This document shows positions 1-9,515 of a stretch of 34,477 nt of DNA, in pieces. Below the pieces are notes generated by a model, which saw only the letters and a program-made list of their open reading frames with translations, ran no database searches and was not told the origin of the DNA. Position 1 is the first letter of the stretch. Each line of letters opens with the position of its first letter. This stretch comes from Escherichia coli. GTDB lineage: Bacteria; Pseudomonadota; Gammaproteobacteria; Enterobacterales; Enterobacteriaceae. The position numbers and the translations under genes were made by a program. The DNA is taken from assembly GCF_003334815.1 (NCBI RefSeq), contig NZ_QOWO01000039.1; one strand, given 5' to 3'.

Positions 1-211
1 ATCGACGATTGCTGGAAAGGCTGGGCCATACTCCTCCGGCAGAAGCAGAAAAAGCTTATTATGCTTCCATCGGAAACGATGATCTGGCAGCCTGAGTTCA
101 CAGATAAAACACTCTCCAGGAAACCCGGGGCGGTTCAGGAGGGCATCTTTAGTTACAAGCACCCAGACTAACCCTTGCCACAATAAACAGGCATGAACAC
201 TGACTGCTATT

Positions 212-245
212 GTAAGGCATTAACGGAGTCCGTATTGACGCTTAC
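212..245. repeat. IS66-family-like palindromic terminal repeat (gtaaggcattaacgg...ccgtattgacgcttac); orientation and parent element unresolved
   Basis: Its reverse complement begins gtaagcgtcaatacgg, matching the IS66 left end at 5142 (gtaagcgtcaacgggg) and the remnant right end at 8044-8077 (taagcgtcaatacggtgctccgttgacgcttac). Near-palindromic like the 8044-8077 end. Confidence 0.45.
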
Positions 246-279
246 GCTCAAGTCGCGACTAATACAACTAAATGAATGA

Positions 280-308
280 TTAACAGCTCAGCTAAACGGA
301 GCTGTTAA
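280..308 (-). terminator. Putative terminator hairpin downstream of lutC (perfect 10-bp inverted repeat ttaacagctc/gagctgttaa, 9-nt loop)
   Basis: Inverted repeat read directly; lies about 25 nt past the lutC stop on the minus strand; the U-tract after the stem is weak. Confidence 0.3.
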
Positions 309-331
309 TCGTATATACATACTAAAATGTA

Positions 332-1027
332 TTAGCAGTCATCAATAATCAAGTAAGTTGCATGTACTGGTCCATGCACACCAACAACTTTGATCAGTTC
401 TATATCTGCAGTAGAACTTGGGCCTCCAATCAGATTGATACAGGAAGGCAGTCGTTGTCCTTCCTGAGCCATTTCATGAAGTTTTTGCGCAAGCTGAGCC
501 ACTCGGGGGAGAATAGTGCTTTTGCGTAAAACAAATAATGATGCTTCAGGCAAAAGGCTTACTGAGCGCCCACGTTCTGGTGCGGAGAATAAGACAATGC
601 CTCCTGATTCTGTCAGCCCATACTCAGCGAAAACGACACCAGTTTTTGCCTTTTCAGCAAGATGGATATTTTCATCGCCCTTCTCCGGATCCCACAGAGC
701 AGCGTCCATTTCTTTTTGTAGCAATGGCGTAATCCCTGTATCGACCAGTCGTTGATCGTTGCTGATAATGACTGGCCCGGAACCGAACTTCCAACAGATG
801 TCTAAGGCTGTTGATGGTGCGTTCTCAGGCGACACCAGAACACACTCGGCAAGCATCACTTCCGAGGCAAATTTAATAAACGCCTCACAGCGTTGGTCTG
901 ATGTCAACTCTGTTAAACGTGTCGTAGCCAGCGTATTTACAGGCTCCGGCATTGCTTCGGGAATATGTCTTACTGGTCTGCCAAGCTTTCTGGCGATCGC
1001 AACGAGAAATTCCTCTCTGTTTTCCAT
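332..1027 (-). CDS. lutC: Lactate utilisation protein C (LutC/YkgG family)
   Basis: 231-aa ORF, last gene of a tightly spaced lutA-lutB-lutC arrangement; conserved C-terminal block ...AEYGLTESGG..LFS..ERGRS.SLLPE.SLF.LRKSTI.PR... resembles E. coli YkgG as recalled from memory. Confidence 0.85.
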   Translation of the reverse strand: MENREEFLVAIARKLGRPVRHIPEAMPEPVNTLATTRLTELTSDQRCEAFIKFASEVMLAECVLVSPENAPSTALDICWKFGSGPVIISNDQRLVDTGITPLLQKEMDAALWDPEKGDENIHLAEKAKTGVVFAEYGLTESGGIVLFSAPERGRSVSLLPEASLFVLRKSTILPRVAQLAQKLHEMAQEGQRLPSCINLIGGPSSTADIELIKVVGVHGPVHATYLIIDDC

Positions 1028-1030
1028 AAA

Positions 1031-2446
1031 TTACCCCTCCTTCTTATGTCGCTTGAACCAACTACGGAAGCTTTCTCCATCAGGTGATGGCAGGTCTCTG
1101 GCTTCAGTCCATTCTTTTATCGCTCCAACACTAATCGGCGTTTTTCCTTTCCTGATGAACAGACGGGCTGTTTTGGCCCCAGCAACCATACCTACCTTCC
1201 ACAACGCCGGATGGCTGTTTATGTAATTGAATGCTCTGGTTATACGGCGTTCCGTTAATGGTGTGATTTCAGACTCTGCCATAACCTGGCGATGTTTTTG
1301 TATTAGCGTTGCCAGAGGTATTTTTACAGGACATACCCCATTGCAGGCAGTGCACAATGAGCAGGCATAGGGTAAATCCTTAAAGTCTTCATATCCACCA
1401 AGCAATGGGGAAATAACCGCACCGATTGGCCCCGGGTAGATTGAACCATAACCATGCCCACCAATCTGACGATAAGCCGGGCAGGTATTAATGCAGGCAC
1501 CGCAGCGGATACATCGCAATACATCGCTGAATTCTGAGCCGAGAATCTCTGAACGCCCATTGTCAACAATAACGAGATGGAACTCTTCCGGACCATCAAC
1601 ATGTCCTTCTTCTCTGGGGCCTGTAAGCCAGGTGTTATAACCTGTCAGTCTCGCCCCGACAGCACTCCTTGCAAGCATGGTAATCAGAACATCCACCTCC
1701 TGGAATGTCGGAGCAATACGCTCCATACCCATAACAGCAATATGTGTTTTAGGTAATGTGGTGCACATCCGTGCGTTGCCTTCGTTTGTAACAAGGCAGA
1801 CTGACCCTGTTTCTGCAACGGCAAAGTTACACCCCGTTACGCCAACTTCAGCACTCAGAAAATCTTGTCTGATTTTCTCACGGATGAACAATGTCATTGC
1901 TTCTGGAGTTTCAGGCCCGTCATACCCCAGATGTTCATGTAAAACTCTGCGGATTTGATGGCGATCTTTATGTATTGCCGGCACAACCACATGCGATGGT
2001 GGCTCATGTGCTAGCTGAAGAATATATTCCCCAAGGTCCGTTTCAATCACGGGTATCCCGGCTTTCTGAAGAACGGCATTCATGCCAATTTCCTCAGTCA
2101 CCATTGATTTGGATTTAACAACCTTCCTGGCGTTTTTTTCTTTCGCCACCTTCAGTATGTAACTGGTTGCATCCTCTCTGGTACGGGCAAAATATACATG
2201 CCCGCCATTCGCAGTAACCTTTTCGGACAATTGATACAAATAAGCATCAAGATTTTCCAGAACATGCCGACGAATCTGTTCAGCTCGTGAACGCCATTCC
2301 TCCCAGTGTCCCAGTTCATCAACCATTTTCTGTCGATTAGTCCCTATGCGCTCCTGTGCGTTAGCCACAGCTTTTCGCATGATCGGGTCCTGAATCTGAA
2401 TACGGATACGCTCTTTAAACCTGATATCACTTGTTTTCAAAGACAT
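1031..2446 (-). CDS. lutB: Lactate utilisation protein B (LutB/YkgF family), 4Fe-4S iron-sulfur protein
   Basis: 471-aa ORF with ferredoxin-type cysteine motifs CIRCGACINTCP and CSLCTACNGVCP; 3-bp gap to lutC and 10-bp gap to lutA. Confidence 0.9.
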   Translation of the reverse strand: MSLKTSDIRFKERIRIQIQDPIMRKAVANAQERIGTNRQKMVDELGHWEEWRSRAEQIRRHVLENLDAYLYQLSEKVTANGGHVYFARTREDATSYILKVAKEKNARKVVKSKSMVTEEIGMNAVLQKAGIPVIETDLGEYILQLAHEPPSHVVVPAIHKDRHQIRRVLHEHLGYDGPETPEAMTLFIREKIRQDFLSAEVGVTGCNFAVAETGSVCLVTNEGNARMCTTLPKTHIAVMGMERIAPTFQEVDVLITMLARSAVGARLTGYNTWLTGPREEGHVDGPEEFHLVIVDNGRSEILGSEFSDVLRCIRCGACINTCPAYRQIGGHGYGSIYPGPIGAVISPLLGGYEDFKDLPYACSLCTACNGVCPVKIPLATLIQKHRQVMAESEITPLTERRITRAFNYINSHPALWKVGMVAGAKTARLFIRKGKTPISVGAIKEWTEARDLPSPDGESFRSWFKRHKKEG

Positions 2447-2456
2447 TCTGTTTACC

Positions 2457-3176
2457 TCATCTGTGCATCAGGACTTCAGCAATATGCATCACTTTTACAG
2501 GATGCCCTTCACGGTTAAGCCGACCGCCGATGTTTAGCAGGCAACTGGCGTCAGCCCCGATAAGAAAATCAGGTTTAACATCCATAATATGCCCGACTTT
2601 CTCTTTCACCATTTCACCAGAGATCTCCGCCATTTTTACAGAGAATGTGCCGCCAAACCCGCAGCACGTTTCCTGAGCGTGAAACGGCAGTAGCTCAAGC
2701 CCCTGTACATTCTCAAGTAGCAAAAGCGGCTCTCTGGTTACACCCAGCTTACGGGAAAGGCTGCAGGAGGGATGGTACACAGCGCGACCATTGAGTTTTG
2801 CCCCAACATCTGTGATGCCAAGATGATTTACTATAAATGATGTCAAATCATGCAGGCGTTCAGCCACTTTTTCAGCTCGTGCCGCCCACTCAGGTTCTTC
2901 ACTGAGATAGCGAGCGTAATTTTTTATCGTGTAAGTGCATGACCCGGCAGGAGATACTACCGGCCAGTCATTCTCTTCCAGCGAAGATATGAGATTTTTC
3001 ATGCCCGGGATGGCATCACGAACATAACCGCCATTTATCGCTGGCTGACCACAACATCCCTGCTTTTCGGGGAAATGGACATTGCAACCCAATTGCTCCA
3101 GTAACAGCACACTCTTTTGTGCCATCCGGGATTTAAACGCATCACCAATGCAGGTGACGAAAAAGTTAACATTCAC
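2457..3176 (-). CDS. lutA: Lactate utilisation protein A (LutA/YkgE family), cysteine-rich Fe-S oxidoreductase subunit
   Basis: 239-aa ORF; N-terminus MNVNFFVTCIGD... and CCG-type cysteine motifs (GCCGQP, CCGFGG) typical of YkgE/LutA; first of the three lut genes. Confidence 0.9.
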   Translation of the reverse strand: MNVNFFVTCIGDAFKSRMAQKSVLLLEQLGCNVHFPEKQGCCGQPAINGGYVRDAIPGMKNLISSLEENDWPVVSPAGSCTYTIKNYARYLSEEPEWAARAEKVAERLHDLTSFIVNHLGITDVGAKLNGRAVYHPSCSLSRKLGVTREPLLLLENVQGLELLPFHAQETCCGFGGTFSVKMAEISGEMVKEKVGHIMDVKPDFLIGADASCLLNIGGRLNREGHPVKVMHIAEVLMHR

Positions 3177-3225
3177 AGAAATTTCTCCTGTTGATTAATA
3201 TTCCACGTCCTTTTGTTGTTTTTTC

Positions 3226-4782
3226 TCAGGCCATGAACAGGTGGTAGACAAGGCCTACTTTCAGTCCAAGAATAACAATATAAGCAAAGCAGTACTTCAG
3301 TGTTCCTGACATGATTACGCTGCCCTGACCATCCATACGGGTGGCTGAAACAGCGATAGCAATACTCTGAGGAGAAATCATTTTGCCGCCTGTTGCGCCA
3401 GATGTATTTGCGGCAGCCAGCCAGAGCGGGTCCACATGCAATTTTTCAGCCGCAGTAGTCTGCAATTTACCAAACAGAATGTTGGAGTTTGTGTCACTAC
3501 CAGTAACAAATGTACCAAGAGCGCCGATAACCGGAGCAATGAAGAGGTAGGCCCCACCAGTCAGATCCACAAGGCTCTGTGCCAGAGTGCCAATCAACCC
3601 ACAGACATCCATTACCGTTGCCATGGCAACAATCGCAGAAATGGCAATAATGGAGTTTTTAAGTTGTTTTACCGTGCTGACAAATACGTTTAACAGGCAT
3701 GACAGGGATGCTTTCTGTATCAAGCCGCCAATAACACTGGCAATGATAATCAGAACACCGGGGGTTGCGATCCATTCAATTTTCATCGACAGATTGCTGC
3801 CGTTACTCAGAGAGAAGGTGAGTGACGAGGCAATCTGAGACACTGCACTTTTTATCGTCGGGAACAGTGGAGAGCAAAGCAGAATGAACAGAAAGATCAG
3901 AATGTAGATTGAGCACGCACGTAACAACGCCCCACGAGAGTATGAAAGTGCGCTGGCGCTATCTGCTGAACTCTCAATAAGAAATTCAGGTTCTGTTTTT
4001 TCTTTACGGTTTTTTGCCATAAAGACTATAACGATCAGACTGACAAGACTTCCTGCGAAAGCCGGGAGCTCTGCGCCAAGATTAACAGCCACCAGATACT
4101 GAGGTATCAATGTGCTAATACCGCACATCAGGGTAATTAACCCTACGCCTCGTATAGCTTTCATACCTCCACCGATAATCGTGACGATAACGAAGGGGAG
4201 CAGAATGTTGAACAGTGCCAGCTGAAGAATAATCGTCCCGCTGAGTGTGGTTACAGGTAAATTAACTTGTTCAGCAAGCACGGAGACAGGTATACCGACT
4301 GCCCCAAACGCTGTAGGGACTGTATTAGCAACCAGTGATGCAATCGCTGCTTTTAGTGGGTTAAAGCCCAGTGCAATGAGTATACCTATGGGGATTGCTA
4401 CCGCTGTACCGTATCCGGCGGCCGCCTCAAGAAATCCGCCAAAACACCATGAGATAAGAAGAACCTGGATGCGTTTATCGTCACTAACGCTCGCCAGAAC
4501 ATTTCTCAGAATATCCATGCTTTTTGTCGCATTCATCAGGTTATAGCTGTAAATGGCAGCAAGGATGACAATCACAATCGGCCACAAACCTTTGATTGCG
4601 CCGTATACCACAGCAGATCCCATATCCATAACTGGCGTCTGCCAGAAAACCCCTCCAAGGATTAGCGTGAGCAGGAGAGTGCTAAGCACAGAATAGTGTA
4701 TGGGCATTTTGACTTTCAGAATCAAAATGATCATCGCCAGAAGGGGGGTAAGTCCCAGTAAAAAAAGCAGGTAATCGTGCAT
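3226..4782 (-). CDS. lctP: L-lactate permease (LctP family), polytopic inner-membrane transporter
   Basis: 518-aa highly hydrophobic ORF with multiple predicted transmembrane segments, directly upstream of lutABC on the same strand (49-bp gap); RBS aaggaa before the ATG. Confidence 0.8.
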   Translation of the reverse strand: MHDYLLFLLGLTPLLAMIILILKVKMPIHYSVLSTLLLTLILGGVFWQTPVMDMGSAVVYGAIKGLWPIVIVILAAIYSYNLMNATKSMDILRNVLASVSDDKRIQVLLISWCFGGFLEAAAGYGTAVAIPIGILIALGFNPLKAAIASLVANTVPTAFGAVGIPVSVLAEQVNLPVTTLSGTIILQLALFNILLPFVIVTIIGGGMKAIRGVGLITLMCGISTLIPQYLVAVNLGAELPAFAGSLVSLIVIVFMAKNRKEKTEPEFLIESSADSASALSYSRGALLRACSIYILIFLFILLCSPLFPTIKSAVSQIASSLTFSLSNGSNLSMKIEWIATPGVLIIIASVIGGLIQKASLSCLLNVFVSTVKQLKNSIIAISAIVAMATVMDVCGLIGTLAQSLVDLTGGAYLFIAPVIGALGTFVTGSDTNSNILFGKLQTTAAEKLHVDPLWLAAANTSGATGGKMISPQSIAIAVSATRMDGQGSVIMSGTLKYCFAYIVILGLKVGLVYHLFMA

Positions 4783-5360
4783 GTCATTTCCTTAAACGAA
4801 AACAAAGTCAGCATCATTACTGTGGTTATTGATAGTTTCCACGCCCTGTCGGACGAGAGTGTTTATTTATCAGGGGGAGAATGAGTATCGTCTCCAAAAT
4901 TGGGATGTTCTTATAAAGTATTTTTTAGTTTAAAAAATATAGCTGAATCGTTTCATTGTTATCTTCCATGAATAAATGTTATGAAATAATACTTTTTGGG
5001 TATTTTTTGTTTATGCGTGTAACACTTGTGTGCTATCCCGATATAACCTTAAGACTGGAGTTGCAACTGGAGCTCGTCGAAAATCAACGCCCAAATCCTC
5101 GACAAATGGAGAAAGAGAATGAGCAATATCACCAGGAATAGGTAAGCGTCAACGGGGATGAAATACGGGGATTACCGGAGTCAGAGCGTCTTGCCGTCAG
5201 GCAGCAGCGAAGCAAAGTGTTACTGACGTCACTGCATGAATGGATGGTGGAGAAGAATGGTACGCTGTCGAAAAAATGTAAGCGTCGTCTGAGTACCGTC
5301 TGGTCCCGAATCCAGGATCCTGTAACTTAAGCACCCACTTATTTTGCAGGTGGACACCTC

Positions 5361-5744
5361 ATGCGCGCTAAAGAAAGACTTCCCCGGAAACACTATTCCC
5401 CTGAATTCAAAATGGAACTGGTCAGGCTGGCTCTTGAAGAAGAAGGCAGTATTGCCGCACTGGCCCGGAAACATGACGTCAATGATAACCTGCTCTTTAA
5501 ATGGATAAGGCTCTGGCAGCGTGAAGGGCGGGTCTGTCGGCCCCGAAAAAACTCATCGTCGCTTCCTGCCCTGATACCCGTGCAGCTTCAGGCGGGCTCT
5601 TCTCTCCCAACCTTCGAACTACCATCCTGCTCTCCTCCCGCTACCTGCCACATAAAATGTCGGGGAGGAGAAATAACACTGACTCATCCCTCTGCTGAAC
5701 TCATGAGCACTGTCCTGCGCGAACTGATGCGGGGGCCTGTATGA
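5361..5744 (+). CDS. tnpA: IS66-family accessory protein OrfA (TnpA)
   Basis: 127-aa ORF, first in the IS66-type three-gene arrangement; its stop overlaps the orfB start (ATGA). Confidence 0.8.
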   Translation: MRAKERLPRKHYSPEFKMELVRLALEEEGSIAALARKHDVNDNLLFKWIRLWQREGRVCRPRKNSSSLPALIPVQLQAGSSLPTFELPSCSPPATCHIKCRGGEITLTHPSAELMSTVLRELMRGPV

Positions 5745-6088
5745 TAAATCTTCCCGCAGGCACAAAAATCTGGCTGGTTGCCGGTATCACCGATATGCGC
5801 AACGGCTTCAATGGCCTCGCCGCAAAGGTGCAGACCGCGCTGAAAGATGACCCGATGTCCGGCCACGTCTTCATCTTCCGGGGACGCAGCGGCAGTCAGG
5901 TAAAACTGCTCTGGTCCACCGGCGATGGTCTGTGCCTGCTGACAAAGCGACTAGAACGTGGTCGCTTCGCCTGGCCCTCAGCCCGCGATGGCAAAGTGTT
6001 CCTGACGCCGGCGCAACTGGCGATGCTGATGGAAGGTATCGACTGGCGACAGCCAAAGCGGTTACTGACATCCCTGACCATGTTGTAG
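5741..6088 (+). CDS. tnpB: IS66-family accessory protein OrfB (TnpB)
   Basis: 115-aa ORF translationally coupled to orfA; precedes the transposase gene. Confidence 0.8.
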   Translation: MINLPAGTKIWLVAGITDMRNGFNGLAAKVQTALKDDPMSGHVFIFRGRSGSQVKLLWSTGDGLCLLTKRLERGRFAWPSARDGKVFLTPAQLAMLMEGIDWRQPKRLLTSLTML

Positions 6089-6137
6089 CGCTCTTTATCC
6101 TGGTTGTCGCAGAATAAGCCTGGTAAAATACAGGCTT

Positions 6138-7672
6138 ATGAACGACACCTCTTCTGACGACATCCTTCTGCTGAAACAGCGCCTGGCCGAACAGGAAGCG
6201 TTGATCCACGCCCTGCAGGAAAAGCTGAGCAACCGGGAACGCGAAATAGACCATCTGCAGGCGCAACTGGATAAGCTGCGCCGGATGAACTTCGGCAGTC
6301 GTTCCGAAAAGGTATCCCGCGTATCGCGCAAATGGAAGCTGACCTGAACCTGCTGCAGCAGGAAAGCGATACGCTGACCGGCCGGGTGGATGACCCGGCA
6401 GTGCAGCGCCCGCTGCGTCAGACCCGCACCCGCAAACCGTTCCCTGAGTCACTCCCACGGGATGAGAAGCGGCTGCTGCCGACTGAGCCGTGTTGCCCGG
6501 AGTGCGGTGGTTCGCTGAGTTACCTGGGTGAGGATGCCGCCGAACAGCTGGAGCTGATGCGCAGCGCCTTCCGGGTTATCCGGACAGTCCGTGAAAAGCA
6601 TGCCTGCCGTCGGTGCGATCGCATCGTTCAGGCCCCGGCTCCTTCGCGCCCCATCGAACGGGGGATCGCCGGACCGGGGCTGCTGGCCCGAGTGCTGACC
6701 TCAAAGTATGCAGAGCACATACCGCTGTATCGCCAGTCGGAGATCTATGCCCGCCAGGGTGTAGTGTTGAGTCGTTCTGTACTGTCGGGCTGGGTGGATG
6801 CGTGTTGTCGTCTGCTGGCACCGCTGGATGAAGCCCTTCAGCACTATGTCCTGACCGACGGCAAACTCCATGCTGACGATATGCCTGTCCCGGTGCTGTT
6901 GCCGGGCAATAAGAAGACGAAGACCGGGCGCTTATGGACGTACGTTCGAGACGACCGCAACGCCGGATCAGCGCTGGCCCCCGCAGTGTGGTTCGCTTAC
7001 AGCCCGGACAGAAAAGGTATCCACCCTCAGACCCATCTTGCAGGCTTCAGTGGCGTACTGCAGGCTGATGCCTACGCCGGGTTCAACGAGCTCTACCGCG
7101 ACGGCCATATAAAGGAAGCCGCGTGCTGGGCCCATGCCCGCCGAAAAATCCACGATGTTCACGTCCGTACCCCGTCAGCCCTGACGGAGGAGGCGCTGAA
7201 ACGGATCGGCGAGCTGTATGCCATCGAGTCGGAGCTCAGAGGTAAAAGAGCAGAGGAACGGCAGGCAGTCCGGCACCAAAAAGTGCTGCCGCTGCTGGCG
7301 TCACTGGAGGGGTGGCTGCGGGAGAAACAGAAAACCCTCTCAAGGCACTCAGAACTGGCGAAGGCGTTCGGGTATGCGCTGAACCAGTGGCCGGCGCTGA
7401 CCCGCTATGCAGAAGATGGCTGGGTGGAGGTGGATAATAACATTGCCGAAAACGCCCTACGACTGGTCAGTCTGGGGAGAAAAAACTGGCTGTTCTTCGG
7501 CTCGGATCATGGTGGTGAGCGCGGTGCGTCACTGTACAGTCTTATCGGGACGTGCAAATTAAACGGCGTGGATCCGGAACGCTATCTGCATCATGTACTT
7601 GATGTCATCGCCGACTGGCCTGTGAACCGGGTGGGTGCTCTGCTCCCGTGGCGGGTTACTCTGCCTGCCTGA
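6138..7672 (+). pseudogene. tnpC: IS66-family transposase (TnpC) split by a frameshift near 6330-6347
   Basis: Track ORFs 6138..6347 (N-terminal coiled-coil/leucine-zipper-like segment) and 6332..7672 (zinc-finger-like CxxC...CxxC, catalytic core, C-terminal ...LLPWRVTLPA) overlap in different frames and together make one IS66-type transposase. Confidence 0.75.
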
Positions 7673-7713
7673 CCAGCTTCACTTCGTCAATACGGTTCTC
7701 ACTGCACGCTTAC

Positions 7714-8047
7714 GAAAAAATCCAGACTGGGCGAAGCGTTCAGCTATGTACTGAATCAGTGGGATGCCCTCTGTTATTACAGTGATGACGGTCTGGCGGA
7801 GGCGGATAATAATGCTGCGGAAAGAGCGCTTCGTGCAGTCTGTCTCGGAAAGAAAAACTTTATGTTCTTTGGCAGCGATCACGGCGGCGAGCGTGGAGCA
7901 CTGTTGTACGGGCTGATCGGCACCTGCCGTCTGAACGGTATCGATCCGGAAGCGTATCTGCGCCATATCCTGAGCGTACTGCCAGAATGGCCTTCCAACC
8001 GAGTTGATGAACTCCTGCCATGGAACGTAGTACTCACCAATAAATAA
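7714..8047 (+). pseudogene. Truncated IS66-family transposase, C-terminal ~110 codons only
   Basis: In-frame translation of 7714-8047 matches the C-terminal region of IS66 TnpC; there is no N-terminal part and no orfA/orfB upstream. Confidence 0.7.
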
Positions 8048-8077
8048 GCGTCAATACGGTGCTCCGTTGACGCTTAC
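7714..8077 (+). mobile_element. 3' remnant of a second IS66-family element: partial transposase C-terminus plus palindromic right terminal repeat
   Basis: Starts immediately after the first element's right end; encodes ...FMFFGSDHGGERGALLYGLIGTCRLNGIDPEAYLRHILSVLPEWPSNRVDELLPWNVVLTNK, diverged from the intact copy's C-terminus; ends in a repeat whose reverse complement is gtaagcgtcaacgg... Confidence 0.7.
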
Positions 8078-8125
8078 AGTTTTTTCAGAAGACGGCAAAG
8101 TAGAGATGGCTGGTTCAGGTTCAGA

Positions 8126-8270
8126 GCATGAGTTTCCCCGGTGTGACGGGCATGGCGGGGCGGATTTTGCAGATACAAAAGACGTAAAAAAACCGACTGG
8201 TGAGGCCGGCTTTTTTACTGTTACGCTACAAAGTTGATGACTCTGACCAGAAAAGAGCTGTCTATAACTG
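8126..8270. repeat. Repeat family copy A (~145 bp) with a 19-codon ORF (8128-8187, MSFPGVTGMAGRILQIQKT) and a terminator-like hairpin
   Basis: Aligned by eye to copy C over about 145 bp from catgagt...cccggt...ggcatgg.gggcggatt through the hairpin to gaaaag...tct. Confidence 0.6.
8186..8216. terminator. Bidirectional intrinsic-terminator-like hairpin (A7-ccgac-tggtgag-gccggc-T6) in repeat copy A
   Basis: GC stem flanked by an A-run on one side and a T-run on the other, so it can terminate on either strand. Confidence 0.5.
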
Positions 8271-8554
8271 ACGCTAAAAATGATAATTTGTTCTACCTGA
8301 TTAATGCAACATGCCATAAGTTTACGGGAAAGGCTGACCACCTGATATTGTTGCAAAATACGAAAGTCGTCAAAATCGCGGTGGGGAGCTTGAGGCTGTA
8401 AGCTGAAAGCGTTTGTGAAAGCCCCGGGAGATTGTTCTATCAATCAACCAAGGGCTCTACTGTAATGCCTAGACAACATTATAGTAGCCCGCTGACGTCC
8501 TCCACGCCAGAGGGAGCTTGCTACGTACAGCTTGTCGTTACTCAGAAGTAATAA

Positions 8555-8625
8555 ATGTAAAAAAACCGACTGATGAGGTCGGTTTTCTTACTGTTCCGTT
8601 ACAGAGTTGGTGGCCCTGACTGGAG
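8555..8625. repeat. Repeat family copy B (partial: hairpin plus conserved downstream segment only)
   Basis: gtaaaaaaaccgactgatgaggtcggttttcttactgttccgttacagagttggtgg matches the terminator-proximal part of copies A and C; the small-ORF part is absent. Confidence 0.5.
8559..8589. terminator. Terminator-like hairpin in repeat copy B (A7-ccgac-tgatgag-gtcgg-TTTTCTT)
   Basis: Perfect 5-bp GC-rich stem with flanking A-run and T-rich run. Confidence 0.4.
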
Positions 8626-8745
8626 GAAATCTCTTTTCAGCTAACGTTCTTATAATAGTGTTCTGTTCATTTGATAACAACCACCCTTGTAATCCGCAGG
8701 TTAGCACTGTCTGGCGACACTTCTGTCGTGATGACGGTAACCAGA

Positions 8746-8892
8746 ACATGAGTCTTCCCGGTATAACAGGCATGGTGGGGCGGATTTGCAGAAACAACAG
8801 ATGTAAAAAAACCGACTGGTGAGGTCGGCTTTTTTACTGTTCCGCTACAGAGTTGGTTGCTCTGGGCGGGAAAAGACAGTCTGTATCTAACA
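8746..8892. repeat. Repeat family copy C (~145 bp) with a 24-codon ORF (8748-8822, MSLPGITGMVGRICRNNRCKKTDW) and a terminator-like hairpin
   Basis: Same unit as copy A; the small ORF shares its first 13 codons with copy A, then diverges through a 1-nt indel. Confidence 0.6.
8805..8835. terminator. Bidirectional intrinsic-terminator-like hairpin (A7-ccgac-tggtgag-gtcgg-c-T6) in repeat copy C
   Basis: Perfect stem with A-run and T-run on either side. Confidence 0.5.
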
Positions 8893-8953
8893 TAATCAAT
8901 TCTATGCTTTGTCCCACACTATGTCAAAAATCCTGCTAATCAAAAAAGAGATC

Positions 8954-9130
8954 TCACGTTAAAAATTTGTACCCTTCTTTAACTTCCAGTGCCTGCTCCT
9001 TTGACTCAAACATCAGTCTTGTTTTCCCGGGAACACCCCATGAAATGTATTCAACATCTATCCACCATTTTCCATATTCTTCATATGGCCCGGATATTAC
9101 TTTTTTGACAAAGGCGTCTACCAGATTCAT
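8954..9130 (-). CDS. Hypothetical small protein (58 aa, MNLVDAFVKKVISGPYEEYGKWW...)
   Basis: Internal ATG of track ORF 8954..9238, preceded by aaggaaaaaaca-ATG (RBS-like); the upstream part of the track ORF has no RBS and looks non-coding. Confidence 0.4.
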   Translation of the reverse strand: MNLVDAFVKKVISGPYEEYGKWWIDVEYISWGVPGKTRLMFESKEQALEVKEGYKFLT

Positions 9131-9515
9131 TGTTTTTTCCTTTTTGTGTTGAAAATAATTAATGCCAGAGCACAGCGAAAATAATGAATGCGCTGGCTGT
9201 GATAATTGCGATTTTCTCCCATATGATATTTTTCTCATGGGGGTTTCTACGGAGATTATTTCTTCGCATTGAGATACCGGTATTCATGTTTTATCTTGGA
9301 CTTTTGTTTTGTTGTCTGTCTGGCAGGCTGTTCTGCGCCCGTTTGTGACAAGGTTAGCTTATGGGGTTAAATGGTCACGGACATCATGCGGACGGTTCCC
9401 TGTCACATGCCATCTGGTTTTTTCATTCAAATTGAGAGATATTGCTAAGTTGAGTCGCTTGCGATAGTGGACTCCTGTTTGTAAGTGAGTGCCATTGTTT
9501 ATTTCATGAAGAGGA

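What the first reader, a model, noticed from the sequence alone, without database searches (positions are those of the whole stretch)
8126..8892. Three-copy repeat family, each with a bidirectional terminator hairpin and (in two copies) a conserved mini-ORF
Copies A (8126-8270) and C (8746-8892) share about 145 bp; copy B (8555-8625) keeps only the hairpin and a conserved ~30-nt segment after it (actgtt.cg.taca.agttgg). A and C begin with a small ORF whose first 13 codons are conserved (MS[FL]PG[VI]TGM[AV]GRI) before an indel changes the tail. The A-run/stem/T-run hairpin can terminate on either strand. Conservation beyond the hairpin argues against a plain terminator; a small RNA family, leader-peptide attenuator, small toxin/antitoxin-like cassette or recombination-site remnant are all possible. 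I could not match it to any element I know.
Basis: seen in the sequence. Interest (0 to 1): 0.6.

Follow-up and report, generated by a model that had tools for sequence, protein, structure and literature searches.

The report
Three orphan AgrB antitoxin RNA genes
The three repeats are minus-strand genes for AgrB-type antisense RNAs, the antidotes of the DinQ/DqlB membrane-toxin family, sitting on an IncI1 conjugative plasmid that has lost all the matching toxin genes, so the element is a known kind in an unusual toxin-less arrangement.

Summary
The repeats are real: A and C are 81% identical over about 147 bp, and all three share the hairpin. They belong to a named family read on the other strand. 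Rfam AgrB (RF02891) matches the minus strand at 8890->8803 (59.4 bits), 8644->8557 (50.7) and 8271->8184 (37.7, just under the cut-off of 40).

The window is an IncI1 plasmid of the ColIb-P9 type. In sister plasmids the same trbA-excA interval holds pnd(hok) followed by agrB and a divergent dqlB toxin gene.

Here all dqlB genes are deleted, and a second hok gene is reduced to its leader. The whole 105-kb plasmid has three agr genes, no target repeat and no DqlB or DinQ ORF.

The scaffold is 84-91% conserved between copies but the antisense domains only 52-65%. Each domain pairs, about as well as the cognate antitoxin, with a different dqlB 5'UTR class on sister plasmids (30/31, 29-30/31 and 28/31 positions).

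The mini-ORF is not conserved in frame or length in homologues and is most likely non-coding spacer.

Whether the orphans are fossils or protect against related plasmids' toxins is open.

The parts
8803..8890 (-). agr copy C: AgrB-family antisense sRNA gene, made of a 31-nt 5' antisense domain at 8890->8860, stem-loop 1, and a terminator at 8837->8803
   Evidence: Rfam AgrB scores 59.4 bits against a cut-off of 40, over the full model 1-84. The minimum-energy fold gives the canonical architecture: free 5' end, SL1, terminator. The terminator has 14 pairs followed by U7. The domain pairs at 28/31 positions, -51.4 kcal/mol, with the p14EC029e dqlB 5'UTR; the cognate antitoxin gives 28/31 and -52.5.
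8899..8927 (-). Promoter of agr C: TTGACA-17-TAGAAT
   Evidence: The promoter scan finds 11 of 12 consensus matches. It is homologous to the agr promoters of p14EC029e (L019) and a Salmonella IncFIB plasmid (L014).
8557..8644 (-). agr copy B: AgrB-family antisense sRNA gene
   Evidence: Rfam AgrB scores 50.7 bits. The terminator has 14 pairs on the minus strand. It lies in a 189-bp block (8544-8732) that is 91% identical to pRWS532 (L004 3805-3993). The domain pairs at 29-30/31 positions, -55.1 to -59.6 kcal/mol, with pRWS532-class dqlB 5'UTRs; the cognate gives 30/31 and -60.6. One SL1 pair is lost relative to pRWS532 (read by eye from the sequences).
8652..8680 (-). Promoter of agr B: TTGTTA-17-TATTAT
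   Evidence: The promoter scan finds 9 of 12 consensus matches. The -10 hexamer is identical to that of the pRWS532 agrB.
8184..8271 (-). agr copy A: AgrB-like sRNA gene, the most eroded of the three
   Evidence: Rfam AgrB scores 37.7 bits, E=1.5e-4, just below the cut-off of 40. nhmmer with an agr profile gives E=1.5e-23. The terminator has 14 pairs on the minus strand and only 5 on the plus strand. The domain pairs at 30/31 positions, -50.6 to -56.2 kcal/mol, with R621a-class dqlB 5'UTRs. SL1 is destabilised in the minimum-energy fold.
8280..8309 (-). Candidate promoter of agr A: TTGCAT-18-TATCAT
   Evidence: Read by eye. It is below the threshold of the scan. It is comparable in quality to the K-12 agrA promoter (TTGCAA-17-TAGCAT) shown.
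8128..8187 (+). Mini-ORF A (19 codons), inside the spacer that lies 3' of agr A on the minus strand
   Evidence: The sequence is. Frame and length are not conserved in homologues. There is no protein-family match for the C version. In sister plasmids this spacer lies between agrB and a minus-strand hypothetical gene.
8748..8822 (+). Mini-ORF C (24 codons), in the same spacer duplicated with agr C; it runs through the hairpin
8347..8525 (+). pnd' remnant: promoter and leader of a second hok-family (pnd) mRNA, with no Hok ORF
   Evidence: Rfam sok/hok-leader RF01794 scores 67.5 bits against a cut-off of 59 at 8384-8525, and ACG stands where the model has the hok AUG. The segment is 81% identical to the pRWS532 pnd leader. 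tblastn with PndA finds nothing in the window.
8645..8732 (+). dqlB' remnant: the divergent promoter region and about the first 45 nt of a dqlB mRNA, cut off before the target repeat and the ORF
   Evidence: It aligns with pRWS532 L004 3906-3993 and then breaks. The -10 hexamer TATAAT of pRWS532 reads TGTAAT here at 8688-8693.
8943..8944 (.). Deletion junction where the dqlB gene partnered with agr C was removed (AATCAA|AAAAGAG)
   Evidence: p14EC029e (L019) continues at this point with the dqlB promoter, target repeat, ORF and terminator, and rejoins at ...AACAAAAAGAGATCTC. The window resumes homology with pRWS532 at 8943.

Best explanation
**What it is.** The three repeats are three paralogous genes for AgrB-family antisense small RNAs, transcribed from the minus strand. 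Each unit consists of:
- a sigma-70-type promoter;
- a roughly 31-nt unstructured 5' antisense domain;
- a conserved stem-loop;

**How such RNAs work.** This step is established for the family, not for these copies. In AgrB/dinQ of E. coli K-12 and agrB/dqlB of pOXA-48 and IncX3 plasmids, the sRNA pairs with a repeat of its own 5' domain in the 5'UTR of a divergently transcribed toxin mRNA. That blocks translation and triggers cleavage, so a small membrane toxin is not made. On plasmids the pair acts as a post-segregational killing module.

**How this array arose.** This step is inferred from comparison. It is what remains of a tandem array of type I toxin-antitoxin modules (pnd/hok, then agrB-dqlB) in the trbA-excA interval of I-complex plasmids. 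In this ColIb-P9-type IncI1 backbone three separate deletions or rearrangements removed every dqlB toxin gene and the second hok gene, and left the antitoxin genes.

**What it does now.** The plasmid holds no target, so the RNAs are orphan antitoxins. My most likely reading is that B and C, and perhaps A, are still transcribed and have no job in cis. They are left-overs of toxin loss, and the order of loss is forced because the toxin must go first. They would nonetheless retain the capacity to silence dqlB of three different specificity classes if such a plasmid shares the cell.

**The mini-ORF.** It is non-coding spacer that was duplicated along with the agr unit.

**Confidence.** About 0.9 that these are AgrB-family genes on the minus strand, about 0.85 that the array is toxin-less, and about 0.5 that the orphans are vestigial rather than selected. 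The overall figure of 0.8 refers to identity, strand and origin.
For: **Identity and strand.**
- Rfam AgrB matches the minus strand at 59.4, 50.7 and 37.7 bits, each over the full-length model.
- The consensus fold of 16 agr homologues gives SL1 plus the terminator, with 4 pairs showing compensatory changes.
- There are 23 G.U cells on the agr strand against 3 on the opposite strand.
- The terminator has 14 pairs on the minus strand and 10, 6 and 5 on the plus strand, and promoters for C (11/12) and B (9/12) lie on the minus strand.

**Context.**
- The window is 100% identical to IncI1 plasmid NZ_CP024481.1.
- The same interval in pRWS532, R621a and p14EC029e holds agrB plus an annotated dqlB.
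- The DqlB peptide hits NCBIfam NF041473 at 67 bits.

**Toxin-less.**
- The whole 105,489-bp plasmid has exactly 3 agr copies, no target-only repeat and no DqlB or DinQ ORF.
- The only strong duplex partners of the three RNAs on the plasmid are their own antisense strands.
- Other loci show 1:1, 2:2 or 3:3 agr:dqlB.

**Retained specificity.**
- A pairs at 30/31 positions with the R621a class.
- B pairs at 29-30/31 positions with the pRWS532 class.
- C pairs at 28/31 positions with the p14EC029e class.
- Cross-class pairing is 22-26/31.
- Duplex energies are -50 to -60 kcal/mol within class and -24 to -40 across classes.
- The method reproduces the published K-12 AgrB value of 30/31 (PMC3567139).

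**Family mechanism.** It comes from PMC3567139, PMC5066626, PMC12365149 (compensatory mutations, rescue of killing after plasmid curing) and PMC12317039.
Against: - No expression data exist for these copies.
- Copy A is below the Rfam cut-off, has only a weak promoter and a destabilised SL1. B has lost one SL1 pair.
- The defining partner of the family, an adjacent toxin gene with a complementary 5'UTR, is absent here, so antitoxin function cannot be exercised in cis.
- The array is nearly invariant in several hundred plasmids. In one 108-bp probe across copy C, 291 plasmids are at least 99% identical. Sequence conservation therefore cannot separate selection from recent common descent.
- Three independent toxin losses that each spare an agr gene with its promoter fit selection for the orphans about as well as they fit chance.
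Confidence: 0.8

Rival explanations
1. **Selected anti-addiction (immunity) array.** The three orphan sRNAs are kept because they neutralise dqlB toxins of competing or co-resident I-complex and other plasmids. A cell carrying this IncI1 plasmid would then survive loss or displacement of an R621a-, pRWS532- or p14EC029e-type plasmid. The mechanism is the same base-pairing, acting in trans between plasmids.
For: - Each copy carries a different antisense domain, and each domain matches a different dqlB 5'UTR class found on sister plasmids about as well as the cognate antitoxin does.
- Promoters of B and C and all three terminators are intact. The substitutions seen are G.U-compatible on the RNA strand.
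- All substitutions between orphan C and the toxin-linked C-type agr of p14EC029e fall in loops, the promoter spacer or structure-preserving positions (compared by eye from the sequences).
- Three separate deletions removed the toxins and spared every agr gene with its promoter.
- agrB supplied in trans rescues killing after pOXA-48 loss (PMC12365149).
Against: - There is no expression or functional data.
- A and B show mild erosion of SL1, and A has a weak promoter.
- The antisense domain of A is no better conserved than the rest of the gene when compared with R621a agr: 4/31 differences against 8/57 (counted by eye from the aligned sequences).
- The co-resident plasmid of this strain showed no dqlB in the 50 kb examined.
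- Orphan antitoxins are the expected neutral by-product of toxin loss.
Confidence: 0.3
2. **Plus-strand element.** A short leader peptide (the mini-ORF) followed by a terminator acts as an attenuator, or encodes a small protein, with the hairpin serving as a bidirectional terminator.
For: - An ATG-initiated ORF precedes the hairpin in A and C, with 9 of 13 identical residues.
- Thr_leader gives weak hits on the plus strand at 8120-8219 and 8726-8838.
- The hairpin has T-runs on both strands.
Against: - The Thr_leader hits score 24 bits against a cut-off of 55.
- ORF length is 13, 16, 19 or 24 codons in homologues because of 1-nt indels. It is frameshifted after codon 3 in p14EC029e, absent from copy B and from IncK2/Z, IncX3 and IncFIB agr modules, and has no Shine-Dalgarno sequence.
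- It has no family match.
- No plus-strand gene follows to be attenuated. A is followed by the pnd' promoter and C by a convergent gene.
- The plus-strand hairpin is weakened by C.A mismatches in A and B.
Confidence: 0.04
3. **Mobile-element debris.** The repeats are ends of an IS or MITE, or recombination-site remnants linked to the adjacent IS66 elements.
For: - Copy A starts about 50 bp from an IS66 end at 8077.
- The repeats clearly mediate rearrangements. In L009 and L016 an agr copy is fused in register to the dqlB target repeat.
Against: - The same three-copy array is present without any IS66 in other IncI1 plasmids, at 99.9% identity, including the ColIb-P9 copy C region.
- The copies are direct repeats with no terminal inverted repeats.
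- They match an sRNA covariance model, not an IS.
Confidence: 0.02

Closest known systems
AgrA/AgrB-dinQ locus of E. coli K-12 (Rfam RF02891; Weel-Sneve et al. 2013, PMC3567139)
   Same: - The sRNA architecture is the same: about 85 nt, a free 31-nt 5' antisense domain, a stem-loop with the CCACCAAC loop, and a terminator with CCGAC/GUCGG arms.
- There are tandem direct repeats of the sRNA gene.
- The covariance-model match is full length.
   Different: - There is no dinQ or dql gene and no target repeat next to the copies or anywhere on the plasmid.
- Pairing with K-12 dinQ is at background level: 22-25 of 31 positions and -27 to -36 kcal/mol, against 30/31 and -59.6 for AgrB.
- There are three copies rather than two, each with a different antisense domain.
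Plasmid agrB-dqlB type I toxin-antitoxin (dql family, Kristiansen et al. 2016, PMC5066626; validated on pOXA-48, PMC12365149, and IncX3 pOXA-484, PMC12317039)
   Same: - It is the same family in the same kind of replicon.
- Direct orthologues sit at the same backbone position in R621a, pRWS532 and p14EC029e. The 189-bp block around copy B is 91% identical to pRWS532, and the copy C probe is 95% identical to p14EC029e.
- The antisense domains here still match those plasmids' dqlB 5'UTRs.
   Different: - The toxin half is missing: the ratio of agr to dqlB is 3:0, against 1:1, 2:2 or 3:3 elsewhere.
- It therefore cannot work as an addiction module for its own plasmid.
pnd / hok-sok type I system of I-complex and R1 plasmids (Rfam RF01794)
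   Same: The segment between copies A and B is a hok-family mRNA leader, at 67.5 bits, and is 81% identical to the intact pnd leader of pRWS532.
   Different: - The hok start codon is ACG and no Hok ORF follows. The leader abuts the terminator of agr B.
- The intact pnd of this plasmid lies outside the window, upstream of the IS66 insertion.
Orphan antitoxins and anti-addiction modules described for protein (type II) antitoxins
   Same: The concept is the same: an antitoxin without its toxin that could neutralise a related toxin encoded elsewhere. This rests on general knowledge of the field and on reviews listed, which I did not read in detail.
   Different: - Here the antitoxins are RNAs whose specificity is set by 31 nt of base-pairing, and three specificities are arrayed together.
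- No function has been shown.

Membership tests
AgrB sRNA (Rfam RF02891) | Covariance-model score at or above the curated cut-off of 40 bits | tested here: met
   C scores 59.4 bits and B 50.7 bits, so both pass. A scores 37.7 bits (E=1.5e-4), just below, so it fails by itself. All three match the full model 1-84.
AgrB sRNA (Rfam RF02891) | Own sigma-70 promoter and Rho-independent terminator on the sRNA strand | tested here: met
   All three have a 14-pair terminator followed by U7 on the minus strand. The scan finds promoters for C (TTGACA-17-TAGAAT) and B (TTGTTA-17-TATTAT). A has only a sub-threshold TTGCAT-18-TATCAT.
AgrB sRNA (Rfam RF02891) | Conserved secondary structure (SL1 plus terminator) supported by covariation on the sRNA strand | tested here: met
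   The 16-sequence consensus has 20 pairs, 4 of them with compensatory changes. On the agr strand 95.6% of cells are paired, against 89.4% on the opposite strand, and G.U cells number 23 against 3. In single-sequence folds SL1 is canonical for C and weakened in A and B.
AgrB sRNA (Rfam RF02891) | A 5' domain of about 31 nt complementary to the 5'UTR of a dinQ or dql toxin mRNA | tested here: inconclusive
   The feature is met only in trans. A pairs at 30/31 with the R621a class, B at 29-30/31 with the pRWS532 class and C at 28/31 with the p14EC029e class. It is not met on the copies' own plasmid, which has no target repeat and no duplex partner beyond the antisense strands of the genes themselves.
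AgrB sRNA (Rfam RF02891) | Transcribed as a small RNA of about 85 nt that represses the toxin | not testable with these tools
   No transcriptome or genetic data for ColIb-P9-type plasmids were found in the paper searches.
DqlB-AgrB / DinQ-AgrB type I toxin-antitoxin system | A divergently transcribed gene for a 27-31-aa hydrophobic DinQ/DqlB peptide next to the sRNA gene | tested here: not met
   tblastn with DqlB and DinQ finds nothing in the window or the whole plasmid at E<0.8, while the same search recovers every annotated dqlB in 12 control loci. Only the promoter and about the first 45 nt of one dqlB mRNA remain, at 8645-8732.
hok/sok (pnd) type I toxin-antitoxin system | A hok mRNA leader fold followed by mok/hok reading frames that encode a Hok/Gef peptide of about 50 aa | tested here: not met
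   The leader fold is present at 67.5 bits against a cut-off of 59. ACG replaces the hok AUG and no Hok ORF follows.
Leader-peptide transcription attenuator | A conserved short ORF with regulatory codons, alternative terminator and antiterminator structures, and a downstream regulated gene on the same strand | tested here: not met
   The ORF is not conserved in frame or length. Thr_leader scores 24 bits against 55. No downstream plus-strand gene is present.
IS or MITE end | Terminal inverted repeats, target-site duplication, and dispersed copies | tested here: not met
   The copies are direct repeats only and no flanking inverted repeats were found. There are three clustered copies and none elsewhere on the plasmid.

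The most novel reading that the evidence does not exclude
The array is a selected, multi-specificity anti-addiction cassette. It would consist of three toxin-less antitoxin sRNAs, each tuned to a different dqlB 5'UTR class. They would let ColIb-P9-type IncI1 plasmids coexist with, or displace, sister plasmids (IncI-gamma, IncK, IncB/O/Z and others) without their host being killed by the loser's toxin. This would be plasmid-versus-plasmid immunity encoded purely in 31-nt RNA address labels.
Probability: 0.27. Interest if true: 0.7.

Novelty: new member of a known kind. Interest (0 to 1): 0.38.

Why it matters
As an identification it is ordinary. The repeats are AgrB-family antitoxin RNA genes, a family already in Rfam and recently shown to stabilise resistance plasmids such as pOXA-48 and IncX3.

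Three points are worth keeping.

1. RefSeq annotates nothing in this 870-bp interval of a very common plasmid backbone. Read on the annotated strand, it misleads towards mini-ORFs and terminators.
2. The ColIb-P9-type IncI1 backbone carries three antitoxin genes and no toxin, while sister plasmids carry matched pairs. This gives a clean natural series for how type I modules duplicate, recombine through their 31-nt repeats and lose toxins first.
3. Each orphan still matches a different toxin class on related plasmids. That makes a concrete and cheap test possible of whether RNA antitoxins mediate cross-protection between competing resistance plasmids. The answer would bear on plasmid-curing strategies that rely on post-segregational killing.

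Tried and rejected
- **Toxin ORF in the window.** I ran tblastn with DinQ, DqlB and PndA against the window and then the whole plasmid. There were no hits.
- **Protein-mode search of the plasmid collection with DqlB.** It returned nothing, presumably because the peptide is masked as low complexity. A DNA query replaced it.
- **Target for the sRNAs on their own plasmid.** A sliding duplex scan of both strands of all 105 kb found only the genes' own antisense strands at or below -43 kcal/mol. The next-best values were -31 to -40, which is background.
- **Chromosomal dinQ as the target.** Rejected, because pairing is at cross-class background.
- **Cognate target of copy C.** BLAST with a 108-nt query cannot detect an imperfect 31-nt target. 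It did, however, reveal p14EC029e, where a C-type agr sits next to dqlB.
- **Mini-ORFs and the 23-codon ORFs antisense to the agr genes.** None matched any NCBIfam family.
- **Co-resident dqlB plasmid in the same strain.** The first 50 kb of the 77-kb pO157-like plasmid has none. The remaining 27 kb and the chromosome were not examined.
- **pOXA-48-like agrB.** It aligned poorly with my guessed coordinates and was dropped from the structure alignment.
- **PndB/Sok-like antisense promoter in the pnd' remnant.** I could not place the promoter confidently without a reference, so I did not settle whether it survives.
Full report
**Observation.** The repeats are real.
- The repeat finder reports a three-copy direct-repeat family of 107 nt (8166-8272, 8539-8645, 8785-8891; 71-81% identity) and a two-copy 46-nt family just upstream (8122-8167, 8742-8787; 85%).
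- A 8126-8270 and C 8746-8892 align at 121/149 = 81%.
- Both mini-ORFs are there (8128-8187 and 8748-8822), and all three copies carry the A-run/stem/T-run hairpin.
- One correction: copy B is a full 88-nt unit (8557-8644), not a stub. Its last 31 nt have diverged so far that the similarity is hard to see by eye.

**What it is.** A scan of the whole window against Rfam gave three hits above curated thresholds.
- AgrB (RF02891) matches the minus strand at 8890->8803 (59.4 bits) and 8644->8557 (50.7 bits).
- The hok-mRNA-leader model 'sok' (RF01794) matches the plus strand at 8384-8525 (67.5 bits).
- A permissive scan of 8050-8960 adds copy A at 8271->8184, at 37.7 bits and E=1.5e-4, just under the AgrB cut-off of 40.
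- All three AgrB matches span the whole model.

The sequence beyond it is the 5' antisense domain.

**Strand.** Four lines agree that the minus strand is the RNA strand.
1. The terminator scan finds 14-pair stems followed by U7 on the minus strand for all three copies, but only 10, 6 and 5 pairs on the plus strand. An A-to-G change in the stem of A and another in the A-run of B give G.U on the minus strand and C.A on the plus strand.
2. The only two promoter-like sites found in 8050-9000 lie on the minus strand, at the right distance upstream of C (TTGACA-17-TAGAAT, 11/12) and B (TTGTTA-17-TATTAT, 9/12). A has a weaker TTGCAT-18-TATCAT, similar in quality to the K-12 agrA promoter.
3. A consensus fold of 16 agr homologues from nine loci gives SL1 plus the terminator, with four pairs showing compensatory changes.
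4. Across that alignment there are 23 G.U cells on the agr strand against 3 that would be G.U on the opposite strand.

**Context.**
- The region is 100% identical to E. coli plasmid NZ_CP024481.1, an IncI1-type plasmid. It lies between an IS66-family end (about 8077) and a small minus-strand hypothetical gene, excA and traY.
- Window positions 1-8077 are an IS66-bracketed insertion carrying lactate-utilisation genes, absent from other IncI1 plasmids. In those, the same 873 bp (99.9% identical) directly follows trbA, the intact pnd (Hok/Gef) gene and a hypothetical gene.
- The copy C region is 100% identical in ColIb-P9 (NC_002122.1) and in about 290 other plasmid records.
- RefSeq annotates nothing under the repeats.

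**The same interval in sister plasmids.**
- In pRWS532 (IncI-gamma/K1) it reads trbA | pnd | hyp(-) | spacer with the 'mini-ORF' sequence | AgrB(-) | divergent promoters | dqlB 5'UTR carrying a repeat of the AgrB 5' domain | dqlB CDS (MINLLIIVLRAVVAVANALIAVLELIRELVD) | terminator | hyp(-) | excA.
- R621a and p14EC029e have the same plan.
- The peptide hits NCBIfam 'DinQ-like type I toxin DqlB' at 67 bits.

**What the family does.**
- dinQ-agrAB of K-12 is a type I toxin-antitoxin locus in which 31 nt at the 5' end of AgrB pair with the dinQ mRNA (PMC3567139).
- dql genes with the same 5'UTR logic are widespread on enterobacterial plasmids (PMC5066626).
- agrB-dqlB was shown to be a post-segregational killing module on pOXA-48, using compensatory mutations in the pairing region and rescue by agrB in trans (PMC12365149), and on an IncX3 plasmid (PMC12317039).

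**Anatomy of this locus by homology to pRWS532**.
- 8077-8251 corresponds to the spacer plus agrB (88% identity).
- 8347-8491 corresponds to the pnd promoter and leader (81%).
- 8544-8732 corresponds to agrB plus both divergent promoters plus about the first 45 nt of the dqlB mRNA (91%).
- 8742-8864 corresponds again to the spacer plus agrB (88%).
- 8943-9140 corresponds to the downstream hypothetical gene (98.5%).

So the order is: agr A, a second pnd reduced to its leader, agr B with a beheaded dqlB, then agr C. In the pnd remnant ACG stands in place of the hok AUG and there is no Hok ORF. Comparison with p14EC029e places the deletion that removed the dqlB partnered with C at 8943/8944, 16 nt beyond the -35 hexamer of agr C.

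**No toxin and no target.** I assembled the whole 105,489-bp plasmid from three fetched pieces. An agr profile finds exactly three full copies and no target-only repeat. tblastn with DqlB and DinQ finds nothing better than E=0.8. A sliding duplex scan finds no partner for any of the three 5' domains other than the antisense strand of the genes themselves. The same searches recover one target repeat and one dqlB per agr gene in most control loci. The agr:dqlB ratios are:

| Locus | agr : dqlB |
|---|---|
| Most control loci | 1:1 |
| An IncK2/Z plasmid (L007) | 2:2 |
| A Salmonella IncFIB plasmid (L014) | 3:3 |
| Another IncK2/Z plasmid (L013) | 2:1 |
| Window, L002 and L018 | 3:0 |
| A Shigella plasmid in which IS100 removed copy A (L020) | 2:0 |

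**Three address labels.** Between copies the hairpin plus SL1 (57 nt) is 84-91% identical, but the 31-nt antisense domain only 52-65%. Each domain matches a different class of dqlB 5'UTR on sister plasmids.

| Copy | Matching dqlB class | Pairing (WC + G.U) | Duplex energy, kcal/mol | Cognate antitoxin for comparison |
|---|---|---|---|---|
| A | R621a class | 26-27 + 3-4 = 30/31 | -50.6 to -56.2 | -55 to -70 |
| B | pRWS532 class | 26-27 + 3 = 29-30/31 | -55.1 to -59.6 | 30/31, -60.6 |
| C | p14EC029e class | 25 + 3 = 28/31 | -51.4 | 28/31, -52.5 |

Cross-class pairing is 22-26/31 and -24 to -40 kcal/mol. K-12 dinQ falls in that background for all three copies. The procedure reproduces the published 30/31 for K-12 AgrB with dinQ.

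**Mini-ORF.** In homologues the ATG-led frame gives:
- MSFPGVTGMSGGF* (13 aa) in pRWS532 and R621a;
- a similar 13-aa product in L015;
- 19 and 24 aa here;
- MSFLVWRTCRGGF... in p14EC029e, frameshifted after codon 3.

The segment is missing altogether from copy B and from the IncK2/Z, IncX3 and IncFIB modules, and there is no Shine-Dalgarno sequence. Nothing matches in NCBIfam. The weak Thr_leader hits (24 bits against a cut-off of 55) reflect only 'short ORF plus terminator'. In the ancestral layout this segment is the spacer between the agrB terminator and the next minus-strand gene. I read it as non-coding sequence duplicated with the agr unit.

**Mechanism and function.**
- Shown for the family, inferred here: each RNA would pair through its free 5' domain with a dqlB 5'UTR, block translation and trigger cleavage.
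- Shown here: identity, strand, promoters and terminators, absence of any toxin or target on the plasmid, and retained class-specific complementarity to foreign dqlB mRNAs.
- Not shown: transcription and activity.

Toxin loss must precede antitoxin loss, so orphan antitoxins are the expected residue of decaying arrays. A and B show slight erosion: A has a sub-threshold score and a weak promoter, and each has lost one SL1 pair. That favours a vestigial reading. On the other side are three intact terminators, two good promoters, three different specificities that each still match a living toxin class, and three deletions that all spared the agr genes. These keep an anti-addiction role alive, which I put at about 0.27-0.3. 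The near-identity of the array across hundreds of plasmids means conservation cannot decide between the two.

**Comparison and novelty.** The units are members of the AgrB family, with copy A borderline. The locus is not a DqlB-AgrB or hok/sok toxin-antitoxin system, because the toxin genes were tested for and are absent. I found no paper that describes this IncI1 array. One paper notes dqlB on another IncI1 plasmid, pTF2 (PMC12211044), so IncI1 backbones differ at this locus. I file the finding as a new member of a known kind, with a toxin-less, three-specificity arrangement that is worth a simple experiment.

Noticed in passing
window 1-8077: An IS66-family-bracketed insertion carries lutABC-type L-lactate utilisation genes and an L-lactate permease. 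It sits between the backbone hypothetical gene and agr copy A. It is absent from other IncI1 plasmids that have the same repeat array.
   Followed up: partly
window 7685-7713 and 8049-8077: Two copies of a 29-nt IS66-type end sequence lie 364 bp apart at 83% identity. They flank a partial IS66 transposase fragment, so two IS66 right ends are nested here.
   Followed up: no
window 8347-8552: This is a second pnd/hok-family module reduced to promoter, leader and a 28-codon mok-like frame. ACG replaces the hok AUG and the leader runs into the terminator of agr B. I did not settle whether the PndB/Sok-like antisense RNA gene survives inside it.
   Followed up: partly
window 8688-8693: In the beheaded dqlB remnant, the -10 hexamer that reads TATAAT in pRWS532 reads TGTAAT. 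This loses the conserved A at position 2 and looks like a promoter-down change.
   Followed up: no
L009 1945-2201 and L016 1466-1722 (IncI1/B/O plasmids): The agr copy is fused in register to the target repeat of the dqlB 5'UTR. This is as expected from recombination between the two 31-nt direct repeats, and it removes both divergent promoters. It is another route by which these modules are inactivated.
   Followed up: partly
L014 (Salmonella IncFIB plasmid CP074624.1) 1-2000; L007 and L013 (IncK2/Z): Tandem arrays of agr/dqlB modules are common. L014 has 3 agr and 3 dqlB, L007 has 2 and 2, and L013 has 2 agr but 1 dqlB, which is another orphan antitoxin gene.
   Followed up: partly
window 8954-9130 (-): A 58-aa hypothetical protein (WP_001054900.1) is conserved immediately downstream of the dqlB position in all I-complex plasmids examined. 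It matches no NCBIfam family.
   Followed up: no
literature (PMC12365149): The published figure that 67.4% of IncI1 plasmids carry a dqlB homologue came from a nucleotide HMM. ColIb-P9-type backbones carry only agr genes and a dqlB 5' stub, so it is unclear on which side of that count they fall.
   Followed up: no
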